From assembly GCA_965178125.1 (NCBI GenBank), contig OZ237743.1, positions 186,001 to 250,000 of the forward strand: a stretch of DNA of 64,000 nt, in the 5' to 3' direction. This document shows positions 1 to 56,441 of this stretch, piece by piece; the first letter of the stretch is position 1, and each line of letters starts with the position of its first letter. The position numbers and the translations under genes were made by a program. The notes beneath the pieces were generated by a model. It was not told the origin of the DNA. It searched no databases and was given only the letters and a program-made list of their open reading frames with translations. Source of the stretch: Bilabrum cf. latius (taxonomy: Eukaryota).

Positions 1-3000
1 ATCCAGGACTGGGTCAAGATGAGCAGTGATACACTCACGCATTTGGGAGCGGCATTGCCTTAACCGTTCCAGCAGTGCCTCCGTCGGCGCGGCGGGGTGG
101 TTCGCCGGAAGCTGCAAGACTCGCGTGGCTGCAAGGAGCACTCCACCAGCAAGCCGACATGCGAAAGTAAGCGGCGTCACAAACACAGGGTTGATGTTAC
201 CCTTGCACATCCTCGCAATTTCCTCGCAGACGGCCATCAGCGGACCCACCGTGCCCTCCGGGGCGTGGGCCAGCTCGTGCCAGAGCGACCCATACGTCGA
301 ACCGAGAGAGACAAGGTCCGTCGGGGCATGATCAGGCATGCCTGGCAAGTGTGCACAAGCTAGTGGCACTGCGGGAGGGCCGGCGCTATCATCCCTGTCA
401 GTCGAAATCACGCCCTGCTACAACCCAAACCTCTAGCGAGCGAAAGGGCTTCCATGAAACAGTGGCCCTGACGAAGATGCCGAACTAGCTCCTCCTCCTG
501 TCGCGGATGCGGCAGCTGCTGCTAGTCCTGAGCCACCTGTTCCTCCCTTGGACGTGCTGCCGCTCGTCAAATCGGGGCACGCGGACTCTGCTACCGCACC
601 GAGTCGAAACACGGAAGTCCACAGCACCTCACGGAGTTCCTCGTTGAAGAGGGCAGATCCGCGCGCCTCGGCAAAGAATCCGAGCACCAGGGGCACACGC
701 ATGGATGACGTCACTGTCAGAGCGCTCAGCAGCTCCTGCGAATCGGTGTCCGTCAGGTAATTCCCAAAGGAATCAAGACCCTCCGCCAGCACCACATCAT
801 CTTCATCGGCTGCACCGTCCTCGATGCGTGCAAGGACGCCGTGTGCCTCAGGAGTCATGAAACTGTGCGATGGGTAGGGTACTGTCAGACTGCATCCCTA
901 CCGGTGCTTGTCCGCAGACCCATCAACCTTGATTCCAGCCTAACCCTTCGTGATCTTGTCGTCGAACTTGGGAGGGGTGAACGAGATCCTTGGCGACACG
1001 AGCTTGCCGGGGGTTCGCCCGATGCCACCGCCGCCGACGAGCTCTATGGCCATCAGGGCCTGTACGTCCCGAACCGCCGCGAACTCGGGGCACTTGTTGG
1101 GCACGTCGTCCGAAAGCTGCATGCAGACTCCCGCGACGAACTTGGGACAGTCTTTCTCGGGGTCTTCCATCTTCATTTTGCGGCATGCCGTTATCGCGAC
1201 GCCATTGACTGTCGGCAACCCCAGCTCAGCGGCAAAGTCGTACGTGATCTTGCTGTTGCTCCAGTTTTGGGATGCTTCTTGCATTGAAGAGCTACCGCCA
1301 CCTGTGTTCCATGCAAACGAGCCTATCAGGCGATCCAGCCTGCCTTTCGGTTTGCTGACTCGCCTAGCGCTAGCCACAGCACTTAATGCTTGGTCCTCTG
1401 CCTGACGACACCCCAGAATTCTCTGTGCAGCCACTCCAACCAGAGGGTCTTCGAGGCTCCACAGCTGCATCGGTACCTCGAGCGGCTCTCCGATGGCGGT
1501 GCTCTGCAGCAGGGTATGCGGCTCGATCTTGGAAGGGCTGAACCTTTCGGTCTTCGCACCAGGCACGGCTTCTGCGCGCAGGAGCTTCGTGACGAGAGAG
1601 CCCTCTCCTTGCGGGCATCCGTACCTCATGACCGACAGAACAAAGTACAAGACTGCAAGCGAGCACGCTTGGCGCTCGGAGACTCCAGCCGCATCTTTTC
1701 GGGGGTTGAAGTGCGTATAGCTGAGGTACTTGCGGAGGAGATCGACGGCAGAATTGCACAGGTCGAGCACTCGTTTCTGTGGCAGCGTGCCGCACGGGTG
1801 CCCGACCGTTACGGAGCTGCTCCCTGCCTTCCCCAGCATCCATCCGATCGAGTCGAAGGGCAGCCGCTGCAGTATGACGCGCTTGACAAATCGGGACCCC
1901 ATAAGCGCCCCATAGTACCCTTCCGACTGCTCCCATATCCGGTCGGCCAGCCTCGAAGCCCCTTCTATTAGGCGCAAGACGTTGTCAGAGGAATCCGTGG
2001 GGATGCTATCGAGGGCCAGTAAGTCGACACCTTTCATGCCGGCCAGGCGGGAACGAGGCCCCTTCAGGCCATCGCGGACATCCTTGGCAAACAGACTCTC
2101 CAGGCCTGCGCCCAGCCACGGGTACCAGACCATGTCCTTGACTGGTCCCGATTTGTTATAATACGATGGCATAATTAATCTCTGTCCAACCTGCCGGTTG
2201 GTATTTGCTGAGAAAGACGGCGATGGGGACGGGGTGAGCTGGCCCGCACCAGCCTCACCCAAGGGCTGCCCGCCTCGGCAGCCCCACACCACCACGTCCC
2301 GGTCGTCGTCAGGGAACGTGAGCTCCCTGCCGGCAGGTTTGATATCAATCACACATAAAACATGTCAAGCAGGGACCAGTTGGCCGGATCAGCAGGTAGC
2401 ATCCTGCACCGCAGCCAGTCTGTCCTGCCGTAGACCCTCCATGAGCTCACGGGTGGGCGGGCTTTCAACAGAACTCCAGTGCCCAGATCTTTATATCTGT
2501 GGCGCTGCGTGTTGCGTCTCAGCCTCCACTCGAGCACTTGCCTCAAGGGAAGTGCCTCGGGAGCACAAACCAGGACCCGAACGACTCGGAATCAGTCGGG
2601 CCTGATCCCAAGTCTTACCGGGTCCCGATTTGTTATAATACGATGGCATAATTAATCTCTGTCCAACCTGCCGGTTGGTATTTGCTGAGAAAGACGGCGA
2701 TGGGGACGGGGTGAGCTGGCCCGCACCAGCCTCACCCAAGGGCTGCCCGCCTCGGCAGCCCCACACCACATTGATGCTACTCGGACGGGAGGGGCGCCCG
2801 TCCGTTGTCCTCTCGCCATTCTGACTCATTCCTTAGAGCTCCGCTACTGCCTTCTTGAACGCCACAGCCAGCTTGGGCAAGTGGTCCTTGCTCATGCAGT
2901 ACACGGCATTCTCCAACGACTTCCAGTCGGCGTGCTTGTACATAACACCCACGGCGGCAACTGTTGCCTGTTCGCCTAGAGTGCGTGCTGAAGGACTCCG

Positions 3001-6000
3001 TGATCTCGCTCGTGCCCGTGCAGTACGCCTCCATCATCCTCCTGATGGCTGTCGTCCAGCTTGCTTACCAACGCTTTGTTGTCTTGGCGTCCGAATTCAC
3101 GAACCGATAGGTCTTGGAGTCAGCAGGGTCGTCGCCGCAGCCGGCTAGTCTACTGCAATGTCCCCCAGATCGTGGTTCGCTGATGCACCTCGTCCAGTCG
3201 CTTCAGTGCGGTCTGGCCCATTGGGATGAGCACTGCCTACAGCGTGTCCCTTACAGCTGTTGTCTTCCAGAGAGAGAACATGGCCATATATGTGCACTTG
3301 CCCTTGTACATCATACTCGCGTCATCCATGGTCCGGGACCGCAGCTCGTTGCCGCGACACGTGCCGCCGATGCCCACTAGTGGAGCCTCGAGGGCAAGGA
3401 TCTCTTCGGGTTTGCCCGCCTTGGGCCCGCCGTCTGTGACCATTGCGGTGCTCCATCTAGATGATGGGAGCACGCTTCTTCCGGTTGCCCACGTCGTGCA
3501 GCCTCTTGTCCCTGCCTACCATCACCGTGTTGGTCGTTCCGGATGTGTCGGGGGATGGAGATGCAGCCCGTCACGTCGATATATCTCGACACGTGGAGAA
3601 GGTTGACCTGAGCGTGGAGCCCTGGAGATTGCCGCGCTCCATGCGCAGCACCATATGGGCAGGGATCCGGTCAAGATTCTTGATCGCCTCCGCAATCGTG
3701 GTGCCGTTGGGGCCGAAGTCTATCAACAGTCTACCTACTGGACGACGCGAAGCCACTCGCGCCGGCTCGCCAGGCTGACATCAACCGCACTGCAGCGTAT
3801 GGCAGGCGCACCCAAGCGCCATCGAGACCAAGCAAGCCCAACTCTGTGGCAGCCGACGCGAAGCAGCCCACCCCGGCTCGCCTGGCTGACTTTGACAGCA
3901 AGGCGGCCACTGGCAGGCGCGCACATGCGCCATCAAGCCCCAGCAAGAGCAAGTATACCCATAATGCACTCTGATCCCTCCAGCCTCAGAGTCTGCACCA
4001 CGATGTGCTCTGCTCTCACCAGCCTCATAGTCTGCACCACGATGTGCTCGGCTCTCACCAGCCGCAGAGTCTGCACCACGATGTGCTCTGCTCTCACCAG
4101 CCGCCGGGCCTGCACCACGATGTGCTCTGCTCACAGCAGCCGCAGAGTCTGCACCACGATGTGCTCTGCTCACACCAGCCGCTGAGTCTGCACCACGATG
4201 TGCTCTGCTCTCACCAGCCGCCGGGCCTGCACCACGATGTGCTCTGCTCACCTTAGCCGCAGAGTCTCCTCGTCGTCATCACCATCAGATACCTCTGCCC
4301 GTTTCCCACCGGCGAGCCCTCGTTGAATAGAGCCTACGGCGTCAACCCTAGTCGCCTCGGCAGAGCTGCCCTATAAGAGGGCAAGACGCACATCCGGAGC
4401 GGGAGGAGAGGCAGCTGGCATCTACAGCGAGGCGCGCTGCTCACAGCAGCCGCCGAGCCTGCACTACGAAATGCTCTGCTCACACCAGCCGCTGAGTCTG
4501 CACCACGATGTGCTCTGCTCACACCAGCCGCTGAGTCCGCACCACGATGTGCTCTGCTCACAGCAGCCGCAGAGTCTGCACCACGATGTGCTCTGCTCTC
4601 ACCAGCCTCATAGTCTGCACCACGATGTGCTCTGCTCACACCAGCCGCTGAGTCTGCACTACGATGTGCTCTGCTCACAGCAGCCGCAGAGTCTGCACCA
4701 CGATGTGCTCTGCTCTCACCAGCCTCATAGTCTGCACCACGATGTGCTCTGCTCTCACCAGCCGCCGGGCCTGCACCACGATATGCTCTGCTCACCTTAG
4801 CCGCAGAGTCTCCTCGTCGTCATCCCCATCAGATACCTCTGCCTGCTTCCCACCGGCGAGCCCTCGTTGAATAGAGCCTACGGCGTCAACCCTAGTCGCC
4901 TCGGCAGAGCTGCCCTAAAGAGGGCAAGACGCACATCCGGAGCGGGAGGAGAGGCAGCTGGCATCTACAGCGAGGCGCGCTGCTCACAGCAGCCGCCGAG
5001 CCTGCACTACGATGTGCTCGGCTCTCACCAGCCGCAGAGTCTGCACCCCGATGTGCGCTTCTCTCACTAGCCGCCGGGCCTGCACCACGATGTGCTCGGC
5101 TCTCACTAGCCGCTGAGTCTGCACCACGATGTGCTCGGCACTCACCAGCCGCAGAGTCTGCTGCCCCCTCGTCGTCATCCCCATCAGATACCTCTGCCTG
5201 TTTCCCACCGGGGAGCCCTCGTCGAATAGAGCCTACGGCGTCAACCCCCGAGGCCTCGGCAGATCTGCCCTATAAGAGGGCAGACGCACACCCGGGGCTG
5301 AAGGAGAGGCAGCCAATAGGTCTCCCGAGAGTTGATCGGTTGTACGCAAAGCAGAGCTGGGCGGGGCTCGTAAGTGCCGCACAGCCACCCCAGCGTGGGA
5401 CCCGCTCGACGGTAGGAGTGTGGGTCCAAGCCCATCTTTCCCCCTACTGTCGGCTATATCCCTTCTAGGAACGGAGCTGGAAGACGATGACGAAGAAGCA
5501 TTACCTGAGGCCCCGCCCCGGCCAAGTACTTGTGTCGCGGCGATGCGGCTGGCCCCACGTCTGGCAGCCAGCGTCGCCTTGGCACGTTCAGCAGCGGAAT
5601 CTGGCTCACGGGTGTAGGTCACGCTCTCCTGCTTGATCCAGCTACAACCTCAGCGCTCAACGGTATAACACTGCTGCTACGGAGGCCTCGAGCGCGGCGG
5701 CCACCAGCCCCGTCGTGAGTGTGGCCTCCTCTATCACTCCGGTTTGCGCGTCCTCCAGCTTTACTGCGTGTGCCCGACACGTCAGGCCCGCCGGGCGCCC
5801 GCACTCCGTGGGTACCCTAGACAGTCTATGGCAGGCGCACACTGGCGTTCTGAAGACCAATCAAGCCCAAGTCGATCTACTAGATGACGCAAAGCGACCC
5901 GCCAAGGGCTCGCCAGGCTGACATCCACAGCACGGCGGTCCGCAGCAGGCGCACGCTGGTGCCATCAAGACCACGTCCTCCCAAGTAAACCCAAGATGGC

Positions 6001-9000
6001 GCTGCACTCACCAGCCGCAGAGTCTACACCACGATGTGCTCGGCTCTCACCAGCCGCAGAGTCTGCTGCCCCCTCGTCGTCATCCCCATCAGATACCTCT
6101 GCCTGTTTCCCACCGGCGAGCCCTCGTTGAATAGAGCCTACGGCGTCAACCCCCGAGGCCCCGGCAGATCTGCCCTATAAGAGGGCAGACGCACATCCGG
6201 GGCTGAAGGAGAGGCAGCCAATAGGTCTCCCGAGAGTTGATCGGTTGTACGCAAAGCAGAGCTGGGCGGGGCTCGTAAGGGCCGCACAGCCACCCCAGCG
6301 TGGGACCCGCTCGACGGTAGGAGTGTGGGTCCAAGCCCATCTTTCCCCCTACTGTCGGCTATATCCCTTCTAGGAACGGAGCTGGAAGACGATGACGAAG
6401 AAGCACTACCTGAGGCCCCGCCCCGGCCAAGTACTTGTGTCGCGGCGATACGGCTGGCCCCACCTCCGGCAGCCAGCGTCGCCTTGGCACGTTCAGCAGC
6501 GGAATCTGGCTCACGGGTGTAGGTCATGCTCTCCTGCTTGATCCAGCTACAACCTCAGCGCCCGAGGGTACCCCACTGCTGCCGCTACCGGAGTAGTGGC
6601 GCCGGCGACGTCGGAGCACTCTCCCCGCCCACGTCGGCGTCCCTCCTGAACCGGGCGCTGCTGCCGCCGCTTTCGTTTTTGCGCTATGGAGGATTTCCCC
6701 GCTGCGGAAAGCTCGAGGACGGCGGCCACTACATCATTTGCGAGTATGGCCTCCTCCATCACCACGGTCTGCACGTCCTGCAGCTTGACTGCGCCTTGAG
6801 CCCGACACGTCAGGCCCGCCGAGCACCTGCACTCCGTGGGTGCCCTTCCCACCGGCTCGCCAAGCTGCCCTCCACAGCAAGACAGTCTATGGCAGGCGCA
6901 CACTGGCGTTCTGAAGACCAATCAAGCCCAAGTCGATCTACTAGATGACGCAAAGCGACCCGCCAAGGGCTCGCCAGGCTGACATCCACAGCACGGCGGT
7001 CCGCAGCAGGCGCACGCTGGTGCCATCAAGACCACGCCATCCCAAGTAAACCCAAGATGGCGCTGCACTCACCAGCCGCAGAGTCTACACCACGATGTGC
7101 TCGGCTCTCACCAGCCGCAGAGTCTGCTGCCCCCTCGTCGTCATCCCCATCAGATACCTCTGCCTGTTTCCCACCGGCGAGCCCTCGTTGAATAGAGCCT
7201 ACGGCGTCAACCCCCGAGGCCCCGGCAGATCTGCCCTATAAGAGGGCAGACGCACATCCGGGGCTGAAGGAGAGGCAGCCAATAGGTCTCCCGAGAGTTG
7301 ATCGGTTGTACGCAAAGCAGAGCTGGGCGGGGCCCGTAAGTGCCGCACAGCCACCCCAGCGTGGGACCCGCTCGACGGTAGGAGTGTGAGTCCAGGCCCA
7401 TCTTTCCCCCTACTGTCGGCTATATCCCTTCTAGGAACGGAGCTGGAAGACGATGACGAAGAAGCACTACCTGAGGCCCCGCCCCGGCCAAGTACTTGTG
7501 TCGCGGCGATGCGGCTGGCCCCACGTCTGGCAGCCAGCGTCGCCTTGGCACGTTCAGCAGCGGAATCTGGCGCACGGGTGTAGGTCACGCTCTCCTGCTT
7601 GATCCAGCTACAACCTCAGCGCCCGAGGGTACCCCACTGCTGCCGCTACCGGAGTAGTGGCGCGGCGACGTCGGAGCACTCTCCTTGCGCCACTTCCTGC
7701 ACCGGGCGCCGCTGCCTCCGCCTTCTCCTGCGCGATTGAGAAGTTCCACGATGCGGAGAGCTCGAGGCTGGCAGCCACCAGATACTTCACGAGCTGGGCC
7801 TCCTCCAGCACTACGGTTTGATGTCCTCCAGCTCTACGGCGTCCGTGCTCGACACGTCAGGCCCGCCGGGCGCCTACTCCGTGGGTGCCGTTCGCCTCGG
7901 CCACCCGGTGGCTGCCGCCGTATCCACTGCCCCAGTTATTGCCGCGTTCTGCAGGCTGATGAGGTGCCGCATCGCCGTCATCTGGAGGAGGTCGCACGCT
8001 AGCTGCGCACCTGTTGGCGTGCCGTCGAGCATGGTCCACCGGAACACCCGCACCATCAGTGGCGACTCGTCGCCTTCGGCGGACCGCCCTAGCTTAGGGA
8101 AAGAGTCGACCATGGCTGCTACCGCCTGTGGCCGTGGTTTCGAGCTCATTTCTGTGAAGAGAACTAGAGTGGGAGCCATGCTGACGAGAAAATGATCTCG
8201 CCGGCGTTGCTGTGCCTGGTCCGCGGTCTCGCATGACTTATACGCGCATTCCGGTTCCGCTAGTGCTTCCTTGCATCCACAAAAGGTAAGCTTGGCTGCG
8301 GCTGCGGCTCCCAGGCCGTCACGGATGCGGCACGAGCCGGGTCAAAATTTTGCGGTTAACTTCAGATACCCCGGGAACTCGCTACCGGCCGCACTTTGTA
8401 CGCCCTCCAATAGTTCGTTAATAGTTCAAACCAACATTCGCACTAAGAGTGATACGCTAAGCAGGCGAGTACGCATGGCGTTGAGTTGCAGCGTGAGTGT
8501 TGGCATTTCGGACCCGTCGGTGGCCAACAGTCGGTAAATTCCAGAGAATTCGTGGGCACCACCTTTCAACAGAACTCCAGTGCCCAGATCTTTATATCTG
8601 TGGCGCTGCGTGTTGCGTCTCAGCCTCCACTCGAGCACTTGCCTCAAGGGAAGTGCCTCGGGAGCACAAACCAGGACCCGAACGACTCGGAATCAGTCGG
8701 GCCTGATCCCAAGTCTTACCTAGGCGGGGCGGGACGTGCCCCGGATCTTGCCACTCTCCGGTCGTACACTTGGGCAAGAGGTCGTCCGAGATTTCTCGGA
8801 GGCTGGCATCGATTTTCCTGAGCTCATCGTCTGTGATGATGCCGGAGCTGTTGTGCTTGAGGGCGTGGTGGGCTGTCTGCTGCAGGCCCATGCGGATTGT
8901 CGTCCGGTCCGAGTCGAACAGCTTCACGCCCTCCTCAGTGGCCAACTGCTCCCGCAAGTAGTCGCCCAGCGAAAGCATGTACTGCAAGCGGAGGAGCAGT

Positions 9001-9778
9001 GTGAGCCGTTTGCATTGCTTGCGACTCGTTCCCCGCAGCCTGGCAACGTACTTGAGCGTGGTCAGGTTGCACCGGAAATAGCACGTCCCTGCCCTCTGGG
9101 GCTTCATCCAATCACCCGAGTGCGCGTCGTGCCCGTGCCGAAATCCGGGGGTGAGTGCGTCCGCGACTGACCTCTGCAGAACGTACGGCAAGTAAATCTC
9201 GTAGAAGGGGAAAGGGCCGTGGTCGGGAGAGCGGGATGCCTTCTGCTTGAGCAGGAGCCAGAGGCCAACCTCGTCCGATGCCCGGTCTAGCTCCACACCG
9301 TCGAATCTCATCGCGAGCCGCATGCCACCGCTGACCAGCGGCCAGCTGCTCTCCCGAGATGGATGGGCCCCTACTCCCTGCCCTGAGTTTATGACGATGA
9401 GAGACATGGTATCGATGGCCGTCTTGTGGAAGCACAGGCAAATTGCGTGGCCGCCTTTCAGCTACGTCCAGCCGGTCTGCAAACACACGATCTGGTCTAC
9501 TTTCATATCGCGAAGTAGCTTTTGCATCTCTTTAACCTACTATAGTAACGAACCATTCTTAGCAATGTCTGCACTTGCCTTGAAAATGCTCTCGAGTTCT
9601 TCCAAGATCTTTTCGTCGATCCCCCAGCTCAAATCTCGAGATGTGCCGATAAGCCTCCTGCACATGTCCGCAAGCCCGCGAGCAGCTATACGAGGGTTAT
9701 TTCCATCTAGTTCTGTGTCCTTGATGAACGGATCGCCGAAGATCCCTGCGCACAAGAATGAATTGCAGAAATCCACGG
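1..9778 (-). CDS. Giant conserved protist protein, 5' part; runs off the window at position 1 and is interrupted by a retroelement. Coding segments are about 9778-8720 and 2141-1; the start codon/5' exon is unresolved.
   Basis: Track ORFs 9540-9776 and 8592-9407 share a frame joined by TAGs (9540, 9537, 9462). ORFs 940-2352 and 433-858 share a frame joined by TAGs (940, 898, 433, 418) that stays open to base 1. Removing 2143-8720 joins ...PPRL to VKDMVWYPW in frame. Motifs TGW-x-x-x-KGGHAI, NSGQG, PQRAGTCY, DSQELLSALTV...RVPLVLGFF and GSTYGSLWHEL resemble a family of very large protist proteins (from recall). Confidence 0.75.
2144..2292 (-). repeat. Element 1 terminal repeat B2 (copy B1 at 2621-2769)
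   Basis: 149-bp direct repeat, offset 477 (ggtcccgatttgttataata...gccccacaccac). Confidence 0.95.
2833..3500 (-). pseudogene. Frameshifted tyrosine recombinase remnant of element 1
   Basis: Motifs appear in the expected order across several frames: GIGGTCRGNELRS (catalytic R, ~3341-3375), SLWKT, FSTHS-RRTG (H-x-x-R-like, ~2970-2992) and KHADWKSLENAVY (G-R-W-x-S...Y-like, ~2900-2940), ending at TAA 2833-2835. It lies just before B1, where Ngaro YR ORFs sit. Confidence 0.65.
3980..5160. repeat. 39-bp minisatellite arrays (unit agtctgcaccacgatgtgctctgctctcaccagccgcag) in three blocks separated by a duplicated ~200-bp spacer
   Basis: Blocks at about 3980-4265, 4440-4810 and 4980-5160. The 13-aa periodicity is visible in the track ORFs (VLCSHQPQSLHHD). 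Spacer copies at about 4263-4440 and 4808-4980. Confidence 0.9.
5125..7885. repeat. Three tandem ~0.9-1.06-kb units inside element 1
   Basis: Near-identical 129-aa track ORFs at 5233-5622, 6138-6527 and 7199-7588 (offsets 905 and 1061), with shared flanking sequence. Confidence 0.9.
7608..8179 (-). pseudogene. Degenerate ORF1-like (possible gag) reading frame of element 1
   Basis: ATG at 8179 downstream of A1 reads through TAG 7874, then shifts frame near 7815 relative to the homologous copy in ORF 6547-6921 (VKLQDVQTVVMEEAILA). Identity is inferred from position only. Confidence 0.35.
8563..8720 (-). repeat. Element 1 terminal repeat A1 (copy A2 at 2462-2619)
   Basis: 158-bp direct repeat, offset 6101 (ctttcaacagaactcc...aagtcttacc). 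Confidence 0.95.
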
Positions 9779-10739
9779 CTGTAGTGGTCCGGCACGGGAC
9801 GAATTATGGCAAAGGGTCTAGCCTACTGAATACAAGCAGCATAATATAATATAATGGGTGATATGTGGTCAATGCATAGAAAGTGATCAGTTCAGCTCAG
9901 CGGGCTTTGCAGACATGAATTCAACGGAATTCATCGGAGGGAGCCACTTTCATTGAGGCGCATTTTCTTACCAAGGTATCCACCATCCAGCCAAGGTTCT
10001 TTACTATATCCTGGCATTGTACCCCTATTACTGCACTGAGGTACCAGTCGTGCGACAAACCAACGAAATTGTTTCGCGGAACATGCCAACACTTATTTCA
10101 CGACCAGTCTGGTTTTTCGCTAAACACCACGTAATCTCCGGCCCCACGCAGCGCACATAGAGAGGCAATGGGCCAAAGGCATGAGCGCGTGCATGCTAGC
10201 CTCTCTGAAGGACCGTGAGACGCAGAGACGGTCTTGGAGGAGGAAATGGTGGGTCCCGGCAGGGGACCCTGATGTGGGACTGGACCGCGCTTTGTGCCGG
10301 GCACATGCTCCGCACCTGTATGCTTTCTCCCTGTGAAGGCATCAGGCTGAGGGCTTGTGGGGGACCACATTGATGGCGAATGAAGGGGACTCGGCGGTGT
10401 AGGCTGAGATTGGGGGGCCTTTGGCCTGAAAGGGTCGGGGGTCTTGTAGTCCTGAGATCACACGTTGTACACAGCACCCTAATCTCGCAGACAGTCACAC
10501 ATGGTTGTAGTTGGTTTCCTCCGAGAGCCCATCCTCAAAGTTACCAAAAAGAAAACTGGCGAGCGCTGCCTCTCAGCGCCCGAATAGCACGCGGCTTGAT
10601 TGCCGCTCGAGTCTAATTGTGACCTCTCAACTTCCACATCCGCACGTGGTCGGGTGATCCGATCCCCCTGATCCGAGTCACCCGTCCCCCACATGCCCAA
10701 ACCCCCACCTACCCGGCCTGTGCCTCCCCCCTTTCTATC

Positions 10740-11160: not shown

Positions 11161-11640
11161 TGCACCTCGAGCGGGTCCTGCGCCCACCGCGCGACCTCAA
11201 TCTCAGAGACCTTGCTGGCCTCACCAACTGAGATCACACGTTGTACACAGCACCCTAATCTCGCAGACAGTCACACATGGTTGTAGTTGGTTTCCTCCGA
11301 GAGCCCATCCTCAAAGTTACCAAGTTCTTCCAGTTACTTGGTTGAGACGGAGCAGTGGAGTGCAGCCGCCAGCAGGAGTTGGAACTGGGTTAAACGGATC
11401 CCGCAGCGGCTGGAAGCTGGCCCGCACACACCGCAAGTCCGCCCATACGGCATGGGGTCTGTCCCAGCCACCAGCTGCGACTACGCCAGGAGCTCAGCCG
11501 CCGATGCATGCAGAGACGAGGCCGGCGTACCACGAAGCCCCGCCAGCATCCAAACGCCCCACGGCCGACCTGACGAGCCGCCCAAATGAACCAGCTGCCG
11601 TCGGGCCCCCGCCCGCACTGGCCCACCACAGCACCACACT

Positions 11641-22300: not shown

Positions 22301-24672
22301 GAGAGAACCAGGAAGAGCATGGAGAAGCAGGGGCTCGAATCATGCGGGCGGACGGGGCAGTGTTGGCCTCTCTGCTGGCAGCGGCATCCGCAGCACCGTG
22401 GAGATTCGTTGGAGATCGATCGATCGGTGGCAGCGCGAGCGGCTCGAGCGGCGGGCCCACGCGAGACGCGGCTGTCGCTGTGGCTGCTTTGCTGCGGGAG
22501 GGCTGCGGTACCCCTGGCGCGGCAGTTGCGCTGGCCGGTGGCTTCGCCCGAGAGTGCGAGGCGGAGGTCAGGGGGGCCGGGCGTGGCAAGGACGCCAGGG
22601 ATGCGATGCGGAGGGCGGTCTCGGCTGGGCAGGCCTCGGCGGCTGCGGCGCTTGCTGTTGCCGTGCACGGCGTGCCGTGTGGCAGTGCTGCAGGTGCTGG
22701 TGGGAGTGCGGTCCTTTCTGTTGACTCTCCTGCCATGGTCCAATAGAGGAAGCGGTAGAGGGATGCAGCCATGGAAATGCTCAGGGAACACATGCGGCTG
22801 GCGAGCCAGGCAGCTGCGGTGGCCAGTAGCCGAAGGGGCCCTGTGGGCCCGGATGCCGGCCCCGTTCTCGGTGAAGGGGCGGTGAGGCAGGCCTGGGCAG
22901 CGGGCGCTGCAGCTGCTGCGCGCGACCACTTCGGCAAGCTCAGGCCCTTTGACCCCTACCGGCCCACGCGAGCAGTGGAGGGACTCTTCGCCCCTGGGGG
23001 GGTCCAGGGCAGGGAGACTGACAAGGAAGGCTCGGTCGGGACCGCGGGCCAGCAGCAAGCCGACGTGCACCGAAGCGAGCTGCGAACTGAGGTGACCAGG
23101 GCAGCGCGCTGGGATGCTGCGGAAGGACAGGCCATCGCCAGAGCCCTCGCAGAGGCGGCGAGGGAACATAAATTTGGCTCCGGATCCGGGCCGGGCGTCT
23201 TCGCGCAGGTCCAGGGGCAGCACCCGCCCTCCCGCAGCTCGCTTGCTCTGCAGCCAGCCTTTGCGGGTCCGCAGGACGCGCAGCAACACTCCATGGCCCG
23301 AGATGCGCTTCTGGGTGCGCTCGCTGCTATCTCTGGTGGCAGTCGCGCGGCTGGATCTGGAACTGGAACAGGGAGTGGCGGTGGCGGTGGCGGCCCTATC
23401 CTCCTCGACCTAGGCGCGCGTGTGCCGGCATGTGGGCGATTCGTTGCCGCAGTACCCTCTGTTGGTCATTCCCTCATGCTGGCGGGCGAGGACGGGGCGC
23501 GCTCGTGGGCGGGGGTGAGTGCGGTGCCCGGGCTGAGTCCATTCGATGCAGCGCTGGTGGGAGTGCCGGTGCAGCTGCCGAGCAACATGACGCGTGCCTT
23601 GGGTGCCGGTGACGGCGCTGTGGAGAACACCGCGCTGGATGCCGCGCATGAACTGACTAGGAACAGCGCGTGGCTGACGCAAGCGCTGCAGGATTGGAGG
23701 GAGGAGGAGGAGGAGGCCAGGCGGATCTGGGAGCTGGCAGCGGCAGAGGAAGGCGAGGGCCAGAGGGGCGGGGCGGGGCCTGGAGCCGGGGAACTGTCCG
23801 GCTCGATGCAGCAGGCTGCAGGTCGAGGCTGGGGCAGGGGCAGGGGTGCAAGGGGTGGACAGAACATGGAAGCAAAGGCAGGCTTGAACGCGAGCGCGAG
23901 CAGACGGGAAGCCGCCGCCATGGCCCGGTGGACCAACCTCGAGTAGGCCCGCAGGGAGAGAATGCTGCAGGCGCTGGGCCCAGTGGGGGGTCACGCCGTC
24001 GCCCGTTTGGAAGGGAAGGTGCACGAGCTTGGCAGGCGGGCGGGCTGGCTGCATGGTCCACTCCGGCCCCTGGTGCTGGCGGTGGACGTGCTGCCTGATG
24101 GTGCTCTCGCCGGGGGAACAGCGTGGGAGGGCATGCCCGGCGAGTGGGTGGCGGGGTCAGGTGCATCGCACGGCAGTGCGGGGGCAGGGGTCCAAGCAGG
24201 TGCCTGGGGCCGGTTCTGGGGCGAGGGTCTCCCCGGGGGTGCAGCGCGCGGTGGTGCCTAGCCACCGGGGGGACCAGATGCAGATGACACTGCCTGGGGT
24301 CGATTACTGGGTCTCGCGCCACCCCTCCGGTGGGGCTCGGAAGGTGCACCGCACGGTGGTGCAGCGGTCGGGAGGAGGCTGTCCCCGCTCGCCTTCGCAC
24401 GGGCCTGTGTGGCCGAACACGCGGGTGCTGCAGCGGCTCCTGTGCACGCCGCTGACGTGCTCACTGCAGCAGGGACAGGGGCGGCAGGCAGGGGCTCTGT
24501 CCGCAGGGGGAGGACAGGGGGGGCGGGGCCACCCCCAGGGCGTGCTGGCAGTCCGGGGGGTAGGCTGACAGTGGATGGCGCGGCCTCGCTGTTGGGGCGG
24601 GCTGTCGGTCAGTCGCCGGTGGCAACTCGGTGGGCCGAGCTCGCCGAGAGAGTGCAAAACAACAGGCAGTAA
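19396..24672 (+). CDS. Large Ala/Gly-rich protein of unknown function (~1,758 aa)
   Basis: Track ORFs 19396, 20014, 22771, 23962 and 24409 share one frame separated only by TAGs (19921, 19990, 22744, 22756, 23944, 24259). The first other stop is TAA 24670-24672. The start could instead be ATG 19486. Confidence 0.75.
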
Positions 24673-27541: not shown

Positions 27542-28321
27542 CCTCCCAGCCTTGAAGATGCTCTGTTGTGAGGCTGAGGTCAAACCGTGGTTAGAAGTTC
27601 CGCAACCACGGCGCCGCGCACCTGCACACCCTCTATTGTTGAAAATGTTGAAAATTATTGTTGTATGCGGTTGATCCATGCTTTAGTCATCCCATTTGTA
27701 TGCATTTTCTCCCCTACACCTTATCGGACAAAGCTCGTGATGCAATCAATGGCTCCCATTTTCGTGACTCATGCACATGTCAGTGGCAGCCACGGTCCAC
27801 GCAGTGGTCGTGCATCTCGGGCAGCACCTGACCTCGTAACGATGCCCCACAAGGTTTATCCCACGCATTGAAATTGGTTGGGGTGGGGTTCACTGGAGCC
27901 CCTGGCGAAAGCCCGACGTCGCCACTGGCAATCCGCTGGACATCTTCATCTTGAGATTTTGGCCGCCGGTCGCAACAACAACACAAACAGCGACCTCGAG
28001 CGACTTTTGTGCGTGCGATTGCGGTCGGCGCTTACTAGCTCTGAGATACTTCTTATTGTGCTCGCTTCACTGTAAGCGATGAGATGCGTCCAGTGATTGC
28101 CAGACGAATAAATCCTTCCTGTAAAATGCGCGCGTCAGTGCGTCTGGTGGTGGCTACTGCAGTCATTTGTAGCACTCTGGTACATTGCGTTGACGTATCA
28201 GGGGGGATGATTCAGTCTGGGCCTCACGTTTTGGTGCCGTTCGGTTCGATGCAGCAATCCAACTCGTCTATCTGCAACTGTAAGGGATGCCAACGGCGTC
28301 ATCGAAAAACAACGTCGTGGT

Positions 28322-31300
28322 ATGCGCGTTAACATCGCTGCAATATGCTAGATTCATACAGTGTTGCTATTTACTCCGCCCCTTGCAGCGACCTGGTTTG
28401 CTGCTGAGGGCCCGCATGTGCTCGGCATCGGCCTCAACGCCACTCGCCGGCATCGCATCCTGCGGTGGGACCAAGCTGAAATCAGAGCAGCTCCAGATGG
28501 ATCGGACGACGCAGGCTGTAAGCTTGTCATGCTCCCAGGTCCATCGAATTGGTATACATTAAATTTAGAGATAGCTGCGCACTGGCGATGGCCCGTGGGC
28601 CCCGGCGGCCTCCCTCCGTCCGAGATGCCCTCCAGCCCGGCCGAGGCAGAGGTATCTGGCACTCTGCCGAGGCCAAGACAGGCAGGACCATGGCCAAATA
28701 GGGTGTACCCCTCCGTATCCGCGCTCTCCAGCGGCTTGTCCCCGGCAGCAATGACACCCCAGGAGCAGGCGTACGGCACGGGGCAGCCACCCAGGATCAG
28801 CGCTCTCCTGCCGCCCACCCGATCTATCGAGCCGTGGACCACTGAGGAATGGGTGCTGGCATATGATATGCGGTCATCTCTTCCACCCAAAAAAACAGGC
28901 TCGTTGCTTGTGGGTGCCTATGGAAGGCACTTTGGAGACGCCAGGTACGGCGAGCAGCTGCAGCCGTGGATGCCACACCCTGGTCTATCGACTGACTACA
29001 AAACGTACTACTATCCATTTTCGTTCGAGAGACAAGGACAATCGTCCGAAGCGTTCATTGCAAGTCATATGCTGGGTCTGTATCAGCGGGTGGCGGTCAG
29101 CATCACGGGGATGATCCGATGCCCCAGGCCGGTGCTCAGCGAGGCATGCACCCCGATGGACGTGCCCATCGCACCCAACGACACCTGTAGGCAGGCCATG
29201 GCATGGCGAGAGCCGCCGAACAGCACGTCGCAGGAGTGTAGGTCGCATCCTGGTAGACCCGACCTGGCAGATCGTGTCTCTTTCGAGCCAGACGATTCGT
29301 ATGCCGCCAACCACATGTTTGGGGGTCTATCTGTTGGAGTGCCAGTGCCCCCAGGAAGTCGAGAATACCCAACCAGTGATGGAGGAGGCGGGCTGTACAA
29401 CCGATGGCACCAGGTGCTCACGGTGGTGTACCCACCGGGCACCGTGGCAGAGATGCCGCTGACACCCCGTGGCTTCCCGTTCACTGGCCCAGCCAAGGCT
29501 CCGGAGTACCCGTGGAGGGTGAATCGACGGCCGGTGGTGCAGTCCATCTGGTCGGTGCCTGGAGTCGCACGATCCATCACTCACCTGAGACTGCATCCTG
29601 GCAACACATCCGAGCCCCCGCTAGACATGTCTGGTGGATACAGCGTTTGCTTTGCGAGAGAGGTATAGCTGTACAATCGACCCCCGCCGGGATTTCCCCC
29701 TGTGCTTGCCGCAGAGGTACTGCTTGACGACCCTTCTTGCGTGGCAGCTCGCAACTGTACGCCCGAATTGAACTTGCCTGAAAGGGTGGAGATCGGATCC
29801 AGGGAACAACTGGAGGCAGTGCATGCCTGGGCTCAGGAGCATGTGCAAGGGCTGCCGGTGGGGGCTCAGGTTCCGCGGTTTGGCTGCTCGCTGGCTTACT
29901 ACATGGGCACAACTGGGAATGGGTCCGCGGAGAACCCAGTGGTCGAATGGGACGCTGACATGCTGCACATGGACTATCCAGCGGCGTCGTCGACACGAGC
30001 GGCAGCAGTGGGTGGTCAGCTCGATCCCACCATAGCGTTTGGAAAGCGGGCGTAGCTACCCAACGTCACAATCGCTGCGCCCAAGATTATTCCGCAGGTA
30101 TATCCAACCGCATATCCGATTCCAACTGGCACGGTTGAAGATGACAAGCCTTGGCCGATGCCGATATACCCCATCCCGCTGCAAGGACCCAAGGCCAGGT
30201 ACAGGGGTGCGGCGCTGTGGAGGGTGGCAGCCGACACGCCCCGCCGATCTCTGCCACAGATCAGCGGTGGCCAGTGGTAGTGCGGCTAGACCAGCAGTCT
30301 AGGGGCGTACTACATGCGACCCGTGTGCAGAGCAGTCTGCAAGCACCCGTAGCAGATTGCCGTGGACCTTGCTCTAGAAGGCAGCGTACAGCCGCGAGGG
30401 TGGATGGGACTGGCGTCGCTGGCCCGGCCTTGGCTGTCCCGGTGGGGCGGGTACCCTGCCCTGCTGCAGAGCGAGAGCGTGGTGCCGCGCGCTAGTCAGG
30501 CAGCAAGTCGGTACGTGGCATCTTTCGGCGGCTGGAAGGACCGCGCTGCGTGGTCACCCCCTGTGTACGAACGCGTGCAGGGCAATCCATCGATGTTGGT
30601 GACCCCTCGTATGGCGTGCCAGCGAGACGATGGCCGAGGGCCGGTCTTGAACCGAGGCGAATCCCGGTGGGCACAGCGTGAGCCTACAAGTCGCGGTATC
30701 GTGTCTTTCACGATGCTGTTTGACCGGAACTAGTGGCCTCCGTCAATCACGTCATCCGAAGTGTAGAGCGCGGGCCCCGGGCTGGGATACCCCGCGCCTA
30801 GTGCCTTCCAGCTGGCCCGCTTGCAGGCCGAGGTTCAAGCAGACGTGATGGACGTGCTGGGCGAGTGGGATTCCTGCCTGAAGGGCAAGCAAGTAGACAC
30901 TGGGCCACCGCTGGGACCCGATTGGGAAGCGTGGTCCTAGGGCAAGGCACCTCGGATGAACAGGCGCACTGTCAGCTGCAATGACACGCATGGGTTCGTG
31001 CGAGTGGTCGACGTGCGGGTGCTGCAGGTGCGTGCACCGACGGTGCCGCGGCCCAGCTCCAGGGTCCCCGAACCGCTTCGTCCGAATCCACCTATGGATG
31101 CTCCATATCTGCCCATGGAAGTGGATGTGGAGGTGCATATTGGCCCTTTGCCCGTCGTGGCATTCGACCGTGGAGGACACCAACGGGTGCAGAGGGGTCG
31201 CTCGGGTGGGACGCTGGCCCAGCAGCTGGGTGCCGTGCTGGCAGGTGCCAGACCAGGGGCGGAAGGGGGCGCGTGGCTTCCAGCAGCAGTGCCCGGTTCT

Positions 31301-33598
31301 GTCAGTGTTGTCATTGATCTACCGTGCCTTCACACCGGGAGCGGACAAGATGCAGCGCAGTGTGGTGCTGGATGGGACTAGCTGTACGTGGGCCCAATTG
31401 CCATCGCTTAGTGGTTGCTCCTAGCCTGTCTTTTCTTTAGCTGCTGGGGTCTATCTGCAGCCCGCACTGCTCGCCTGGCATGGCTTCACAGCGAGGGCGG
31501 AGTCCAGGCGTCCGAAGCTGAAATGGTACTGCTGGGTGCAAGCAGTGCAGATATGCTGCCTACAACGACTGTTTTCCATTCAAGATAGACAGGCACTGGT
31601 CCACTGGACCTTGCAGCAGCTGGATTGGATCCTATCATGCGTGGTGATCCGATGATCGACTCGATGGATCGACTTACCACCGAGCAATCGGTGAATGCCG
31701 GCGTTCTCGACTCTGCCCGGGCCAGCGCCCGTCAGGTTCGAATCAAACCACGACCCGCAACGTCACCAGAAGCGAGTGACAGAAGGCCTGGTACTGACAA
31801 GCCGGCCATTGGCCCGCAGTCCCTGGAGAAGATCGTAGTGCCGTCCATGGCCAGCAGCACCGACTCACATGTGCACCGTCTCGCCCGCGGTGGGCGCATC
31901 CCAGCGGTGAGCAAGCGGATGGGCGCACAGGGAAGCAGTGGACGTGTCAAAGACCCAGCCACCTCTGGTGAGCCCATGGAACTTCCATCATCCCCGTCTG
32001 TATGGACAAGTCGACAGTCCAGTGATGCCGGTGGGGTTGCCGCGGCTGGGCAGTCTACTATTGGGCACAGCCGATTGCGAGGTGCTGCGGAGCGGTTGGC
32101 ACTAAAAGCCAACCCGCTTCCATCGATCCATACTAGCGTAGTGTGCTCGTCCTCTCAATCCAATGGCGTGACTCAAGGCAAAAGTAGTGGAGACATCCGT
32201 GCAGCCGCTTCGGTGGAGAGCGATGTTGGAGATCGGTGGGAAGAGACCGGGGCATGGAGGGCACCGCGTGATGCCGAGCATCTGCAGCCCCATTCTACAT
32301 CGGAGCAGACTGGCTGGTTGTGTTTGCCCACATGTCTCACTCGAGAGGCAGACTAGGCAAGTGGTGGGATCTGGGCTGTGGTGTGGCTGTACCGCTGGGC
32401 TGTGTACTGGGTGCTTGCCGCTTCTCTAGGCGTCGGTAGGATGAGCGTGCCTGCCGTGCTGCTGTTTGGAGCTCTTGGATTCGGTTTGGTATACCGCGTG
32501 TGGCTATTGCGAGGAGGGCGCTCCTGCAACGAGTGTCTGTGCTTCTACTGCGGGGCCGGCATGTATTGCTGCACTGGCACAACGGGTAGGGACGGGCTCG
32601 AGGCTGGCCAAGCTGGGGGAGCCGATGCGAGTGGATCAGGGCACGATTCACACGGGCCAGGCACTTGCCTGAGACTGTGCCATCGAGGAGATGTGCTAGG
32701 CTATGGTGTAGGGGGAAGCCATGCGGTGCTTCATTCATCGAGCGCCGGCACAGGGCCGTCGTGGACACCCCCGACACCATCCGCCGTGTTTCGAAGGACC
32801 GGCCTGGTGTACCAGTCCTCGATCCAGAGCTCCGCACCACTGACCGTTCCTGGCACAGACAGACCCCTGCACGGTTAGTTGCCATCGAACAGCATGCATG
32901 AAGGCATCCTTGTCAACCCGTCAAGATCGGTGCGACCGGAAGCATCAGTTGTGGATGCTATCAGTCTTCGCGTAAACTCCTCGTCAGCTGGGGAGGGTGT
33001 CAACGAGCCCGGTGCACGCGAAAGCATGACTCTCCAAAGCCATATCGAGCTGAATGCTGGCGTGGAACAGGGTTTGCCTGCCCCTGTGGTGCTGGCGTGC
33101 AGGGCAGTGCACAAGCGTCTTGCAGCCCATTTGCCCGACATGGTGGTGCTTCGCGCGCTTCAGGTGCTGCAGTGGGATGCACAGAGCCTCATGTGGGTGC
33201 AGGCCTCGGCTGCCACTGACCCGCTCCTCGATGTCGGCAGGAAGGACACCGGCAGTACTGGCGGCAGCACTGGCAGACGGGTGGCGGCGGTGGGTCTGGG
33301 TCGAGTGGTGGGCGTGTCAGGCGCATGGCTGCGTCTGTACGAAGATGTAGCAACGCTGGCTTGCCTCGCATGGAGCTTGATGTGCGCCTTGGGGTCGTGC
33401 GGACATGAATGGTGCCTGGGGCCGGTGGGAGTTGGGGATGGCGACGGCACGCAGCACGACATTTTGCTGCGGGGGACAGCTCCCGAGCTGTACTTGGGGG
33501 AGCGTGCGAGCGCGGCTGGAGCATCTGCGGCTCTCGGGCTGGTGCTAGCCATGGTATCTGTCGGTCATGCTTGTGCATCATTAGGATCTGCCCGTTGA
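28322..33598 (+). CDS. Large Pro/Trp-rich membrane protein of unknown function (~1,758 aa; 5' end uncertain, possible signal-peptide exon at 28126)
   Basis: Seven track ORFs (28361, 29702, 30362, 30956, 31625, 32378, 32879) lie in one frame with 14 in-frame TAGs and no TAA/TGA until TGA 33596-33598. Hydrophobic segments occur near 31390-31460, 32370-32510 and 33340-33570. Confidence 0.75.
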
Positions 33599-38598: not shown

Positions 38599-38774
38599 AT
38601 GGAGCTTCGTGCAGTGCTGAAAAATGCAACCGGAACCTCACTCCGAGTCTGGCCGCCCGGCCGCCAGCGTGATGACGATGGCACGGCCGCAGCCGCGACC
38701 TTGTGGCACTTGACTGGTACTGCTGGACCAACTCGAACGTAACGTAGACAATAAACTAACAATAACGGCCAAAG

Positions 38775-50312: not shown

Positions 50313-50460
50313 TCTTGGCCGCAATAATGTGGCCGCCGAACGGCAACACAAGGTCGCACCGTGACGAGCGGTCGCAACTTCGAACTACTGCAAAACTGCA
50401 ACTGCAAAGATCAGCCTCTTTGTCTGCGTTGCTCAATTGTGGGCGTATTATTTCAATACC

Positions 50461-51702: not shown

Positions 51703-51889
51703 TGGGGGGACTGCCTGGGTAGGGTGCGCACAGCGCAGTGACAAATTGGCTTATCATGGTTGCATGGTGTTGTGCAAAGTGCATTTTCTGAAGTGGTGCT
51801 CGTCACATGACCACGTCACGGTGCGCGATAGCGAGTGACCTTCTCTGTCGACATTGAGCACCCCATACGATGTCCATCTGTGCCTTTGT

Positions 51890-56400: not shown

Positions 56401-56441
56401 AATGGCACGTCACAAATGTCGATTTGGACACGTTTCAGAAT

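What the first reader, a model, noticed from the sequence alone, without database searches (positions are those of the whole stretch)
2142..8720. A 6.6-kb tyrosine-recombinase retroelement that can be spliced out exactly as a GT-AG intron
Seen (minus strand): the host sequence reads CGC CTA G|GTAAGA at 8720/8719, a consensus donor supplied by the element's A1 end. At the other end it reads TATAAC...GGACCAG|TC AAG GAC at 2142/2141, where the B2 end plus the duplicated target AG forms an acceptor with a branch-like motif upstream. Excising 8719-2142 (6,578 nt) gives CTA GTC AAG GAC (L-V-K-D), the same in-frame sequence as the reconstructed empty site. The internal B1 copy ends CCG rather than CAG, so it is not an acceptor. 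Both host flanks remain open. Inference: an introner-like strategy, AG-targeted insertion with built-in splice sites, in a Ngaro/DIRS-type retroelement; known introners are mostly attributed to DNA transposons.
Basis: partly seen in the sequence, partly recalled or inferred. Interest (0 to 1): 0.85.

Follow-up and report, generated by a model that had tools for sequence, protein, structure and literature searches.

The report
Mobile element inside a gene's exon
A young, degraded mobile element of the tyrosine-recombinase retroelement type sits inside a conserved protein-coding exon, and although its ends look like intron splice sites that could remove it exactly, the data available show no sign that it is spliced out.

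Summary
On the minus strand, 8719..2142 (6,578 nt) is one element with split direct repeats: A1, interior, B1-A2, 169-nt spacer, B2. A1 and A2 are identical. B1 and B2 are identical except for the base next to the junction. The element starts with GTAAGA and ends with ACC plus AG. Removing it gives CGC CTA GTC AAG GAC. A relative's uninterrupted ORF (P0003) reads ...GHVPPRLVKDV... straight across that point, so the insertion lies in a conserved coding exon.

The interior has no detectable RT, RNase H or recombinase domain by Pfam. I saw recombinase motifs only by eye, spread over three frames. No run is on record as RNA. In three runs that behave like RNA, the gene's 226-nt intron is removed. 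In X5, the deepest of them, the contig carrying that splice runs on into A1. No contig in any run joins 8720 to 2141.

The flanking AG..AG fits the known integration chemistry of DIRS-type elements. Introners derived from retrotransposons and Cryptons are already published.

Most likely this is a recent exon-disrupting insertion whose splice-like ends are not used efficiently.

Separately, TAG appears to be a sense codon throughout this window.

The parts
8563..8719 (-). A1, the 5' terminal repeat (157 nt). It begins with GTAAGA, the putative donor.
   Evidence: Identical to 2462-2618. Sequence read.
8720..8721 (-). Host AG immediately upstream of the element. It is the left copy of the AG found at both junctions.
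   Evidence: The codons CTA + G are host sequence, because P0003 has L262-V263 here.
7874..8562 (-). Unique 5' interior. It contains a 155-aa ORF (7874-8341) with no recognised family.
   Evidence: 0 Pfam families.
5094..7359 (-). Three copies of a roughly 1-kb internal repeat (start-to-start spacing 905 and 1061 nt; 96% identity over the 300-nt reference).
   Evidence: families D2, D4 and D7.
3969..5161 (-). Arrays of a 39-nt tandem repeat: 21.7 copies at 3969-4811 and 4.6 copies at 4982-5161.
   Evidence: family D1.
2899..3368 (-). Remnants of a tyrosine recombinase gene spread over three frames. GGTCRGNELRS lies at 3368-3336 (frame 2). KTTAVRDTL lies at 3266-3240 (frame 2). THSRRTG, an H-x-x-R motif, lies at 2986-2966 (frame 0). 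HADWKSLENAVY lies at 2934-2899 (frame 1).
   Evidence: Coordinates are and the translation. I identified the motifs by eye from recalled recombinase motifs. Pfam did not detect them.
2621..2769 (-). B1, the internal copy of repeat B. It is followed by the dinucleotide CG (2620-2619).
2462..2618 (-). A2, the internal copy of repeat A. It also begins with GTAAGA.
2293..2461 (-). 169-nt spacer between A2 and B2.
2144..2292 (-). B2, the 3' terminal repeat. It contains TATAAC and an in-frame ATG (MPSYYNKSGP, 2172-2143).
2142..2143 (-). AG at the right junction, the putative acceptor. It is the right copy of the flanking AG.
8720..9745 (-). Upstream host exon. It is colinear with P0003 and holds three in-frame TAG codons (9542, 9539, 9464).
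9746..9971 (-). A genuine 226-nt GT-AG intron of the host gene (G|GTAAGA...GCGCAG|G, phase 1).
   Evidence: Joint 9744->9971 (cut +1) in contigs of X5, X6 and X7. Sequence.
1..2141 (-). Downstream host exon. It is open to the edge of the window, has four in-frame TAG codons, and is colinear with P0003, P0001 and P0009.

Best explanation
This is a recent insertion of a non-autonomous, internally degraded mobile element into a conserved coding exon of a very large gene, in the sense orientation. The element has the split-direct-repeat architecture of the DIRS order, of the Ngaro or PAT-like kind.

Its splice-like ends follow from two properties of the element. The first is a fixed 5' terminus, (G)GTAAGA. 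The second is the short junction sequence (AG here) that tyrosine-recombinase integration leaves on both sides. Exact GT..AG excision is therefore formally possible for this copy.

In the available data the element is not removed in the predominant molecules. The likely outcome is a truncated reading frame: the upstream frame runs 42 codons into A1 to a TAA. A second possible product would start inside B2. Either way the gene is disrupted rather than rescued.

**Shown:** the element's anatomy, its youth, its position in a conserved exon, and that excision would restore the protein exactly.

**Inferred:** the retroelement class, the integration chemistry, and the absence of efficient splicing.
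For: **Architecture and youth**
- The layout is A1-interior-B1A2-spacer-B2, with A1 identical to A2 and B1 identical to B2. This matches the published A1-[ORFs]-B1A2B2 layout of Ngaro and PAT elements (PMC8547959 and PMC4157794, passages).
- There are zero differences over 157 + 149 nt of terminal repeat, so the insertion is young.

**Degraded interior**
- The interior holds 39-nt arrays and three copies of a roughly 1-kb repeat.
- Pfam finds no RT, RNase H, methyltransferase or recombinase, even when all three sense frames are read through with X.
- The recombinase motifs seen by eye are split over three frames.

**Multi-copy family**
- Interior contigs have depth 157-385, against 19-23 for the host flank in X1 and X5.

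**Conserved exon**
- P0003 runs R261-L262-V263 across the insertion point.

**Both junctions seen in reads**
- Contigs of X1 and X5 run from host sequence into the element at both ends, for 28-32 letters (table 8). Only the 32-letter one meets the tool's 31-letter rule for bridging.

**Flanking AG**

**Hint against splicing**
- X5 record 16 joins 9971 to 9744, so the intron is removed. It then continues through 8720 to 8691.
- None of the 4 runs has a joint from 8720 to 2141 (table 5).
- Acceptor pyrimidines are 9 of 20, against 13 of 20 and 16 of 20.
Against: - No run is on record as RNA. The tool labels X5 'RNA? (probably DNA)'. If X5-X7 are DNA, nothing here bears on splicing at all.
- Contigs drop rare variants, so minor or condition-specific splicing is not excluded.
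- The donor G|GTAAGA is identical to that of the gene's verified intron. By itself, a 6-nt match at an element terminus is unlikely.
- A second copy seen as a loose end in X7 has the same five letters, CCTAG, before GTAAGA (table 7). This hints at a preference for an AG-ending target, which would make every sense-strand exon insertion excisable.
- The host frame downstream is still intact for at least 714 codons. This is also expected from youth alone.
- The retroelement class rests on architecture only. No RT or recombinase was detected by any tool.
Confidence: 0.55

Rival explanations
1. This is an introner-like element. The family integrates at AG-ending targets and carries its own donor (GTAAGA). 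It also carries a branch-like motif and an ACC end that is completed by the target's AG. Sense-strand exon insertions are therefore spliced out exactly and the gene stays functional, at least in part or under some conditions.
For: - GT at 8719 and AG at 2143-2142 allow exact restoration of R-L-V-K-D, as in P0003.
- The donor 7-mer is identical to that of the verified intron.
- 2 of the 3 genomic A-end flanks seen end in CCTAG: this copy, and the X7 loose end at 8724. The third, the X5 loose end at 2621, ends in CCG.
- The insertion appears fixed, with no branch at either junction in X1 or X5 contigs.
- Introners from many TE classes exist (PMC12130899, passages).
Against: - No joint 8720->2141 appears in any of the 4 runs, while the neighbouring 226-nt intron is joined in 3 of them. 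The X5 contig that carries that splice runs on into A1.
- The acceptor is pyrimidine-poor.
- At 6,578 nt the element is far longer than the 226-nt and 98-nt introns.
- One flank ends in CG, and the element's own internal junction is CG, so AG is not obligatory.
- Only one exon insertion could be examined. No whole genome is held for this window.
Confidence: 0.17
2. The full-length copy is not spliced, but it is the precursor of an intron. Recombination between A1 and A2 would leave a 477-nt solo unit (A, spacer, B). That unit keeps GTAAGA...ACCAG and has a length divisible by 3. Such solo units, rather than 6.6-kb copies, would be the family's intron-forming form.
For: - GT(2618)..AG(2142) measures 477 nt, with length mod 3 = 0.
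- Solo AB repeats of Ngaro elements are reported in Cafeteria (PMC8547959, passage).
- Solo LTRs acting as introners are reported (PMC12130899, passage).
Against: - No solo unit was seen in the window (the element has no other hits in the 64 kb).
- The acceptor is the same weak one.
- This is pure inference.
Confidence: 0.08
3. The element is not a retroelement. It is a DNA element moved by a tyrosine recombinase (Crypton-like), or an unknown class that happens to have split direct repeats.
For: - No RT or RNase H was detected in any sense frame.
- The recombinase motifs were seen by eye only.
- Searches with the recombinase piece found nothing.
Against: - In the passages read, the A1..B1A2..B2 arrangement is the diagnostic layout of the PAT, Ngaro and VIPER retroelements. 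Its role there is to rebuild the ends from an incomplete transcript.
- Cryptons are described as lacking conserved structural features (PMC12130899, passage).
- A non-autonomous copy is expected to lack RT.
Confidence: 0.1
4. The insertion is an assembly artefact, with a repeat wrongly placed into the gene.
For: - In X1 the flank contigs differ in depth, 22.5 against 2.9. This is unexplained.
Against: - Contigs from two studies (X1, X5) run from unique host sequence into both element ends with 0 other letters (table 8).
- No contig shows the empty site.
Confidence: 0.02

Closest known systems
Ngaro and PAT-like tyrosine-recombinase retroelements (DIRS order)
   Same: Split direct repeats in the order A1-[interior]-B1A2-B2. 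Size of about 6-7 kb. A recombinase gene lies upstream of the internal repeats, here only as remnants. A short identical sequence flanks both ends. The family is multi-copy.
   Different: No RT, RNase H, Gag or methyltransferase is detectable. The interior is filled with tandem repeats. A 169-nt spacer separates A2 from B2. The insertion lies inside a coding exon and has splice-like ends.
Introners: intron-generating transposons of Micromonas and Aureococcus, and the 1,093 families of PMC12130899
   Same: The element carries one splice site and completes the other from the duplicated or shared target dinucleotide. This is the 3' AG co-option scheme drawn in PMC11282704 (passage). Excision would restore the exon exactly. 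The element is non-autonomous.
   Different: Introners are defined by many copies that are in fact spliced. Here there is one copy with no splicing evidence, and it is 6.6 kb long. No DIRS or Ngaro introner is named in the main text of PMC12130899. Its Dataset S2 could not be seen.
Crypton-derived introners (tyrosine-recombinase DNA elements, under 1% of classified introner families in PMC12130899)
   Same: Integration by a tyrosine recombinase without a classical staggered-cut duplication.
   Different: Cryptons lack terminal repeats. This element has split direct repeats.
Ordinary exon-disrupting retrotransposon insertions
   Same: A young, fixed insertion that shifts the frame (6,578 mod 3 = 2) and brings a stop 42 codons into the element.
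   Different: The termini happen to give a perfect AG|GTAAGA donor and a frame-restoring AG acceptor.

Membership tests
DIRS-order element with split direct repeats (Ngaro / PAT-like) | Terminal and internal repeats arranged A1 ... B1A2 ... B2, with A1 = A2 and B1 = B2 | tested here: met
   The definition is from PMC4157794 and PMC8547959 (passages).
DIRS-order element with split direct repeats (Ngaro / PAT-like) | Encodes a tyrosine recombinase (R...H-x-x-R...Y) | tested here: inconclusive
   Motifs were seen by eye, in the right order and spacing but in three frames. Pfam found nothing at E<=1. PDB and homologue searches found nothing.
DIRS-order element with split direct repeats (Ngaro / PAT-like) | Encodes reverse transcriptase and RNase H | tested here: not met
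   There were 0 such Pfam hits in the three sense frames read through with X. This copy is at best a non-autonomous derivative. The antisense frames were not scanned as whole frames.
DIRS-order element with split direct repeats (Ngaro / PAT-like) | Methyltransferase domain present (PAT/DIRS) or absent (Ngaro) | not testable with these tools
   The interior is degraded and no autonomous copy is available, because no genome is held.
DIRS-order element with split direct repeats (Ngaro / PAT-like) | The same short sequence at both ends, matching the circle or internal junction | tested here: inconclusive
   AG is found at both ends, but the internal B1A2 junction reads CG. The concept is from PMC7192593 (passage).
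Introner | The element supplies or co-opts GT..AG so that excision restores the exon | tested here: met
Introner | Actually spliced from transcripts | tested here: inconclusive
   No run is on record as RNA. None of the 4 runs has a joint 8720->2141, while 3 of the 4 show the 226-nt intron joined. Contigs cannot prove absence.
Introner | Many copies of one family forming introns in unrelated genes | not testable with these tools
   No whole genome is held. There is no other copy in the window. The metagenome scan returned only 2 chance bacterial matches.

The most novel reading that the evidence does not exclude
Members of this family integrate through a junction sequence ending in AG and begin with GTAAGA. 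Every sense-strand exon insertion would then be an exactly excisable GT-AG unit. The family, especially its 477-nt solo A-spacer-B derivatives, would be the first introner of the DIRS order. In it the recombinase's crossover dinucleotide, rather than a staggered-cut duplication, would supply the acceptor.
Probability: 0.12. Interest if true: 0.6.

Novelty: new member of a known kind. Interest (0 to 1): 0.35.

Why it matters
If the element were spliced, tyrosine-recombinase retroelements would join the transposon classes that create introns. It would also show a second way to obtain the 3' splice site, from a recombination core rather than a target-site duplication. That would be an incremental addition, because published work already argues that nearly any transposon class can do this.

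As it stands, the locus is a clean natural test case. It is a very young 6.6-kb insertion with a perfect donor, sitting in a conserved exon next to a normally spliced intron of the same gene. One RT-PCR would settle it.

The side observation may matter more than the element. TAG seems to be read as a sense codon across this GC-rich eukaryotic window.

Tried and rejected
- **Whole genome.** None is held for this window, so there could be no census of copies, flanks or orientation.
- **RNA runs.** No RNA holder is listed for the host exon.
- **Metagenome scan.** A 20-nt A-end word found 2 contigs, L001 and L002. Both look bacterial and match only the 20-mer. I rejected them as chance.
- **Host protein.**
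  - No Pfam family for either flank.
  - Word-based homologue searches of both flanks found nothing.
  - Only the full HMMER scan found relatives: 4 proteins at E<=0.001, one of them a repetitive protein that I judge spurious.
- **Recombinase piece.**
  - Pfam found nothing.
  - The PDB search gave one hit at E=0.6, rejected.
  - The homologue search for longer proteins found nothing.
  - Searches failed on my frame errors and were not repeated for those fragments.
- **Intron predictions.** An ORF-joining scan for further introns was too noisy. I kept only one plausible 98-nt intron, 61311-61214, and it remains unverified.
- **Amino acid for TAG.** It was not resolved.
  - Two sites align with Leu in P0009/P0004.
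  - Other sites align with T, T or K, and N, with R in PINK1, and with E in an internal repeat.
  - A relative's contig has a stop where its sister contig has Q.
  - No tRNA gene is in the window.
- **Lineage.** The Atlas hits for the ABC1 kinase gave Chlorophyta, Ascomycota and Haptophyta. This is not informative.
- **Copy number.** Depth-based estimates are unreliable, because X1's two host flanks differ 22.5 against 2.9.


Full report
**1. What is in the sequence**

Read on the minus strand, the host sequence ...CCCCGCCTAG is followed at 8719 by GTAAGACTTGGG.... At the other end...TATTATAACAAATCGGGACCAG (ending at 2142) is followed by TCAAGGACATG.

Repeat A (8563-8719) recurs without any difference at 2462-2618. 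Repeat B (2144-2292) recurs at 2621-2769. The only difference between the copies of B lies just outside them: A at 2143 against C at 2620. The 26-nt ends of A and of B each occur exactly twice in the 64 kb, and none of 100 shuffles gave any match.

The order is A1, interior, B1 directly joined to A2 through CG, a 169-nt spacer, then B2. This is the split-direct-repeat layout described for PAT-like, Ngaro and VIPER tyrosine-recombinase retroelements. It is written 'A1-B1-A2-B2' in PMC4157794 and 'A1-[ORFs]-B1A2B2' in PMC8547959 (passages read).

**2. What the element contains**

The interior is mostly repeats. There are 39-nt arrays of 21.7 and 4.6 copies, and three copies of a roughly 1-kb unit.

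Pfam finds no reverse transcriptase, RNase H, methyltransferase or recombinase. This holds for individual ORFs and for the three sense frames read through with X at every stop.

By eye I see recombinase-like motifs in the expected order and spacing:
- ...GGTCRGNELRS... at 3368-3336
- K... at 3266-3240
- ...THSRRTG... at 2986-2966
- ...HADWKSLENAVY at 2934-2899

These motifs lie in three different frames. The identification rests on recalled motifs, not on a tool score. PDB and homologue searches with the largest piece found nothing.

The copy is therefore a degraded, non-autonomous member of its family. Its terminal repeats have no differences, so it inserted recently. The window holds no other copy.

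**3. The host gene**

Both flanks are open but match no Pfam family. A full HMMER scan of 1.84 billion representatives found 4 proteins at E<=0.001.

One of them, P0003, is an unbroken 383-aa ORF from a relative's contig.
- It aligns to the upstream flank over residues 18-261 (62% identity, no gaps).
- It aligns to the downstream flank from residue 263 (44% identity).
- L262 corresponds to the CTA codon at 8723-8721.
- The relative reads ...GEWVDRGHVPPRLVKDVTW.... The window reads ...GEWQDPGHVPPRL | VKDMVW....

The insertion therefore lies inside a conserved coding exon. Removing 8719-2142 (6,578 nt) restores the orthologous protein exactly.

**4. Is it spliced?**

No whole genome is held, and no run is on record as RNA. 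I laid four runs on 1-10500.

X1 behaves as DNA. Its longest contig is 212 kb, and it covers the 226-nt intron and the unique stretch up to 10155.

X5, X6 and X7 come from two studies. The tool labels them 'RNA?', and for X5 'probably DNA'. They behave differently from X1 in four ways:
- All three have a contig that joins 9744 to 9971. On the gene's strand this removes G|GTAAGA...GCGCAG|G, a phase-1 intron.
- Their contigs stop 84, 83 and 71 letters beyond the joint, about 40 nt upstream of an ATG at 10017.
- The depth of their bins at 9801-10150 is almost wholly accounted for by those letters alone (exactly in X5 and X6; X7 shows 0.55 against about 0.49 expected).
- The depth ratio of the 10151-10500 repeat to the element interior is 0.7-1.4, against 18 in X1.

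I read these three runs as probably RNA, at roughly 70-75%. The tool itself rates contigs of two studies stopping at one place as a weak hint.

Against that reading:
- X5's downstream contig ends at the same far position as X1's (6,982 against 6,980 nt).
- The depths upstream and downstream of the element are equal.

X5 record 16 carries the spliced intron junction and then runs through 8720 for 29 letters into A1. X5 record 9 runs from 32 letters inside B2 into the downstream exon. No contig in any of the 4 runs joins 8720 to 2141.

If they are DNA, splicing is simply untested. In that case the 226-nt intron would be absent from their genomes.

Two cautions apply. Contigs cannot prove absence. 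Three of the four junction overhangs (28-30 letters) fall just short of the tool's 31-letter rule for bridging.

**5. How good are the signals?**

The donor G|GTAAGA is identical to the donor of the verified intron.

The acceptor is poorer. It has 9 pyrimidines in positions -3 to -22. The verified intron has 13. A second intron, 98 nt long and only predicted from ORF joining, has 16. Both of those introns end in GCGCAG|G, while the element ends in GGACCAG|T.

The element is also 30-70 times longer than those introns.

Unspliced, the upstream frame runs 42 codons into A1 to a TAA. B2 offers an in-frame ATG ten codons before the junction.

**6. Why AG..AG?**

DIRS-type elements are thought to integrate as circles. 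A short junction sequence pairs with the same sequence in the target. [quoted passage not shown]

The flanking AG fits this, although the internal B1A2 junction of this copy reads CG.

Loose ends show three other A-end contexts:
- One has the same CCTAG before GTAAGA (X7).
- One has CCG before GTAAGA (X5).
- One differs in the first three letters of A (X6).

Of the 3 flanks that precede an intact GTAAGA (this copy, X7 and X5), 2 end in AG. This sample is too small to call a preference.

So exact excisability follows from the element's fixed GT start plus an AG junction. It does not need to be an adaptation.

**7. Comparison with what is known**

PMC12130899 (passages) reports 1,093 introner families. 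Of those classified, about 82% are TIR DNA transposons, about 12% LTR retrotransposons, 5% non-LTR retrotransposons, 1% Helitrons and under 1% Cryptons. It concludes that seemingly any kind of transposon can generate introns.

Its main text names neither DIRS nor Ngaro. The only 'ngaro' match there is the word 'kangaroo' in a reference. Dataset S2 could not be opened.

In the held library two searches bear on this:
- 'introner' with 'tyrosine recombinase' finds 2 papers, 1 listed, which is that paper.
- 'introners' with 'DIRS' finds 1 paper, and it is unrelated.

A DIRS-order introner would therefore be new but incremental.

Co-option of the 3' AG from the duplicated target is the scheme already drawn for Micromonas introners (PMC11282704, passage).

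**8. Verdict**

Most likely (0.55) this is a recent exon-disrupting insertion of a non-autonomous split-direct-repeat element whose splice-like ends are not used efficiently. Real introner behaviour keeps about 0.17, plus 0.08 for solo-unit derivatives.

**9. Noticed in passing: TAG looks like a sense codon**

Every in-frame stop in the homology-colinear host coding region is TAG (7 of 7). Relatives align straight through them with equal spacing.

Reading TAG as sense gives ORFs of 3,885, 1,795, 1,763, 1,603 and 1,203 codons, holding 33, 14, 6, 6 and 12 TAGs, with no TAA or TGA. Treating TAA as sense changes almost nothing. Treating TGA as sense gives only scattered ORFs on both strands, up to 988 codons.

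Of the 12 ORFs of at least 600 codons, 10 end in TGA, 1 ends in TAA and 1 runs off the window.

The amino acid is unresolved.

Noticed in passing
whole window; e.g. 38778-50432(-), 28211-33595(+), 19381-24669(+), 56445-61253(-), 1-2364(-), 8595-9803(-): TAG behaves as a sense codon. With TAG read through, ORFs of 3,885, 1,795, 1,763 and 1,603 codons appear, holding 33, 14, 6 and 6 in-frame TAGs and no TAA or TGA. Of the 12 ORFs of at least 600 codons, 10 end in TGA, 1 ends in TAA and 1 runs off the window. All 7 in-frame stops of the host gene are TAG, and relatives align through them. The amino acid is unresolved: two sites align with Leu, others with T, N, R or E, and a relative has a stop where its sister contig has Q. 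No tRNA gene is in the window.
   Followed up: partly
window 9746-9971 (-): This is a 226-nt GT-AG intron of the host gene. It is present in the window and in X1, but joined out in contigs of X5, X6 and X7. It is either ordinary splicing in runs that are really RNA, or an intron presence/absence difference between near-identical genomes if those runs are DNA.
   Followed up: partly
window 10155-10560, partial copy 11228-11323: This is a high-copy repeat starting about 100 nt upstream of the host gene's probable start. Its depth is 2,844 in X1, against 22.5 and 2.9 for the unique flanks. All four runs have loose ends at 10155/10157. It was not classified.
   Followed up: no
window 1-2171 versus 8692-10155: In run X1 the two unique flanks of the element differ eightfold in contig depth (22.5 against 2.9). 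In X5 they are equal (19 against 23.4). This is unexplained. It makes depth-based copy numbers for the element (about 7 to 54) unreliable.
   Followed up: no
window 2427 joined to 8687 (equivalently within A2-spacer): Contigs of X5 and X7, but not X1 or X6, join position 33 of repeat A to the spacer, with one extra letter between (depth 122 and 22). This looks like a deletion variant of the element family present in some samples only.
   Followed up: no
P0003/P0007, P0008, P0004, P0009 (relatives' contigs): The host gene family is rare: 4 hits at E<=0.001 in 1.84 billion representatives. In relatives it is also called as several consecutive ORF pieces on one contig. P0008 stops after ...RAIE, where P0009 from a sister contig continues with Q. 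This suggests in-frame stops are read through in the relatives too.
   Followed up: partly
window 2143-2172 (-): B2 carries an ATG in frame with the downstream host exon (MPSYYNKSGP|VKDMVW...). A transcript starting in the element could therefore encode the C-terminal bulk of the host protein.
   Followed up: no
window 54766-56409 (-), 51839-53923 (+), 36181-38637 (-): These are ordinary genes recognisable only when TAG is read through: a PINK1-like kinase (PDB E=1.7e-08), an ABC1 atypical kinase and an MRS2-like magnesium transporter.
   Followed up: partly
window 18807-19006: A run of 200 N, which is an assembly gap.
   Followed up: no
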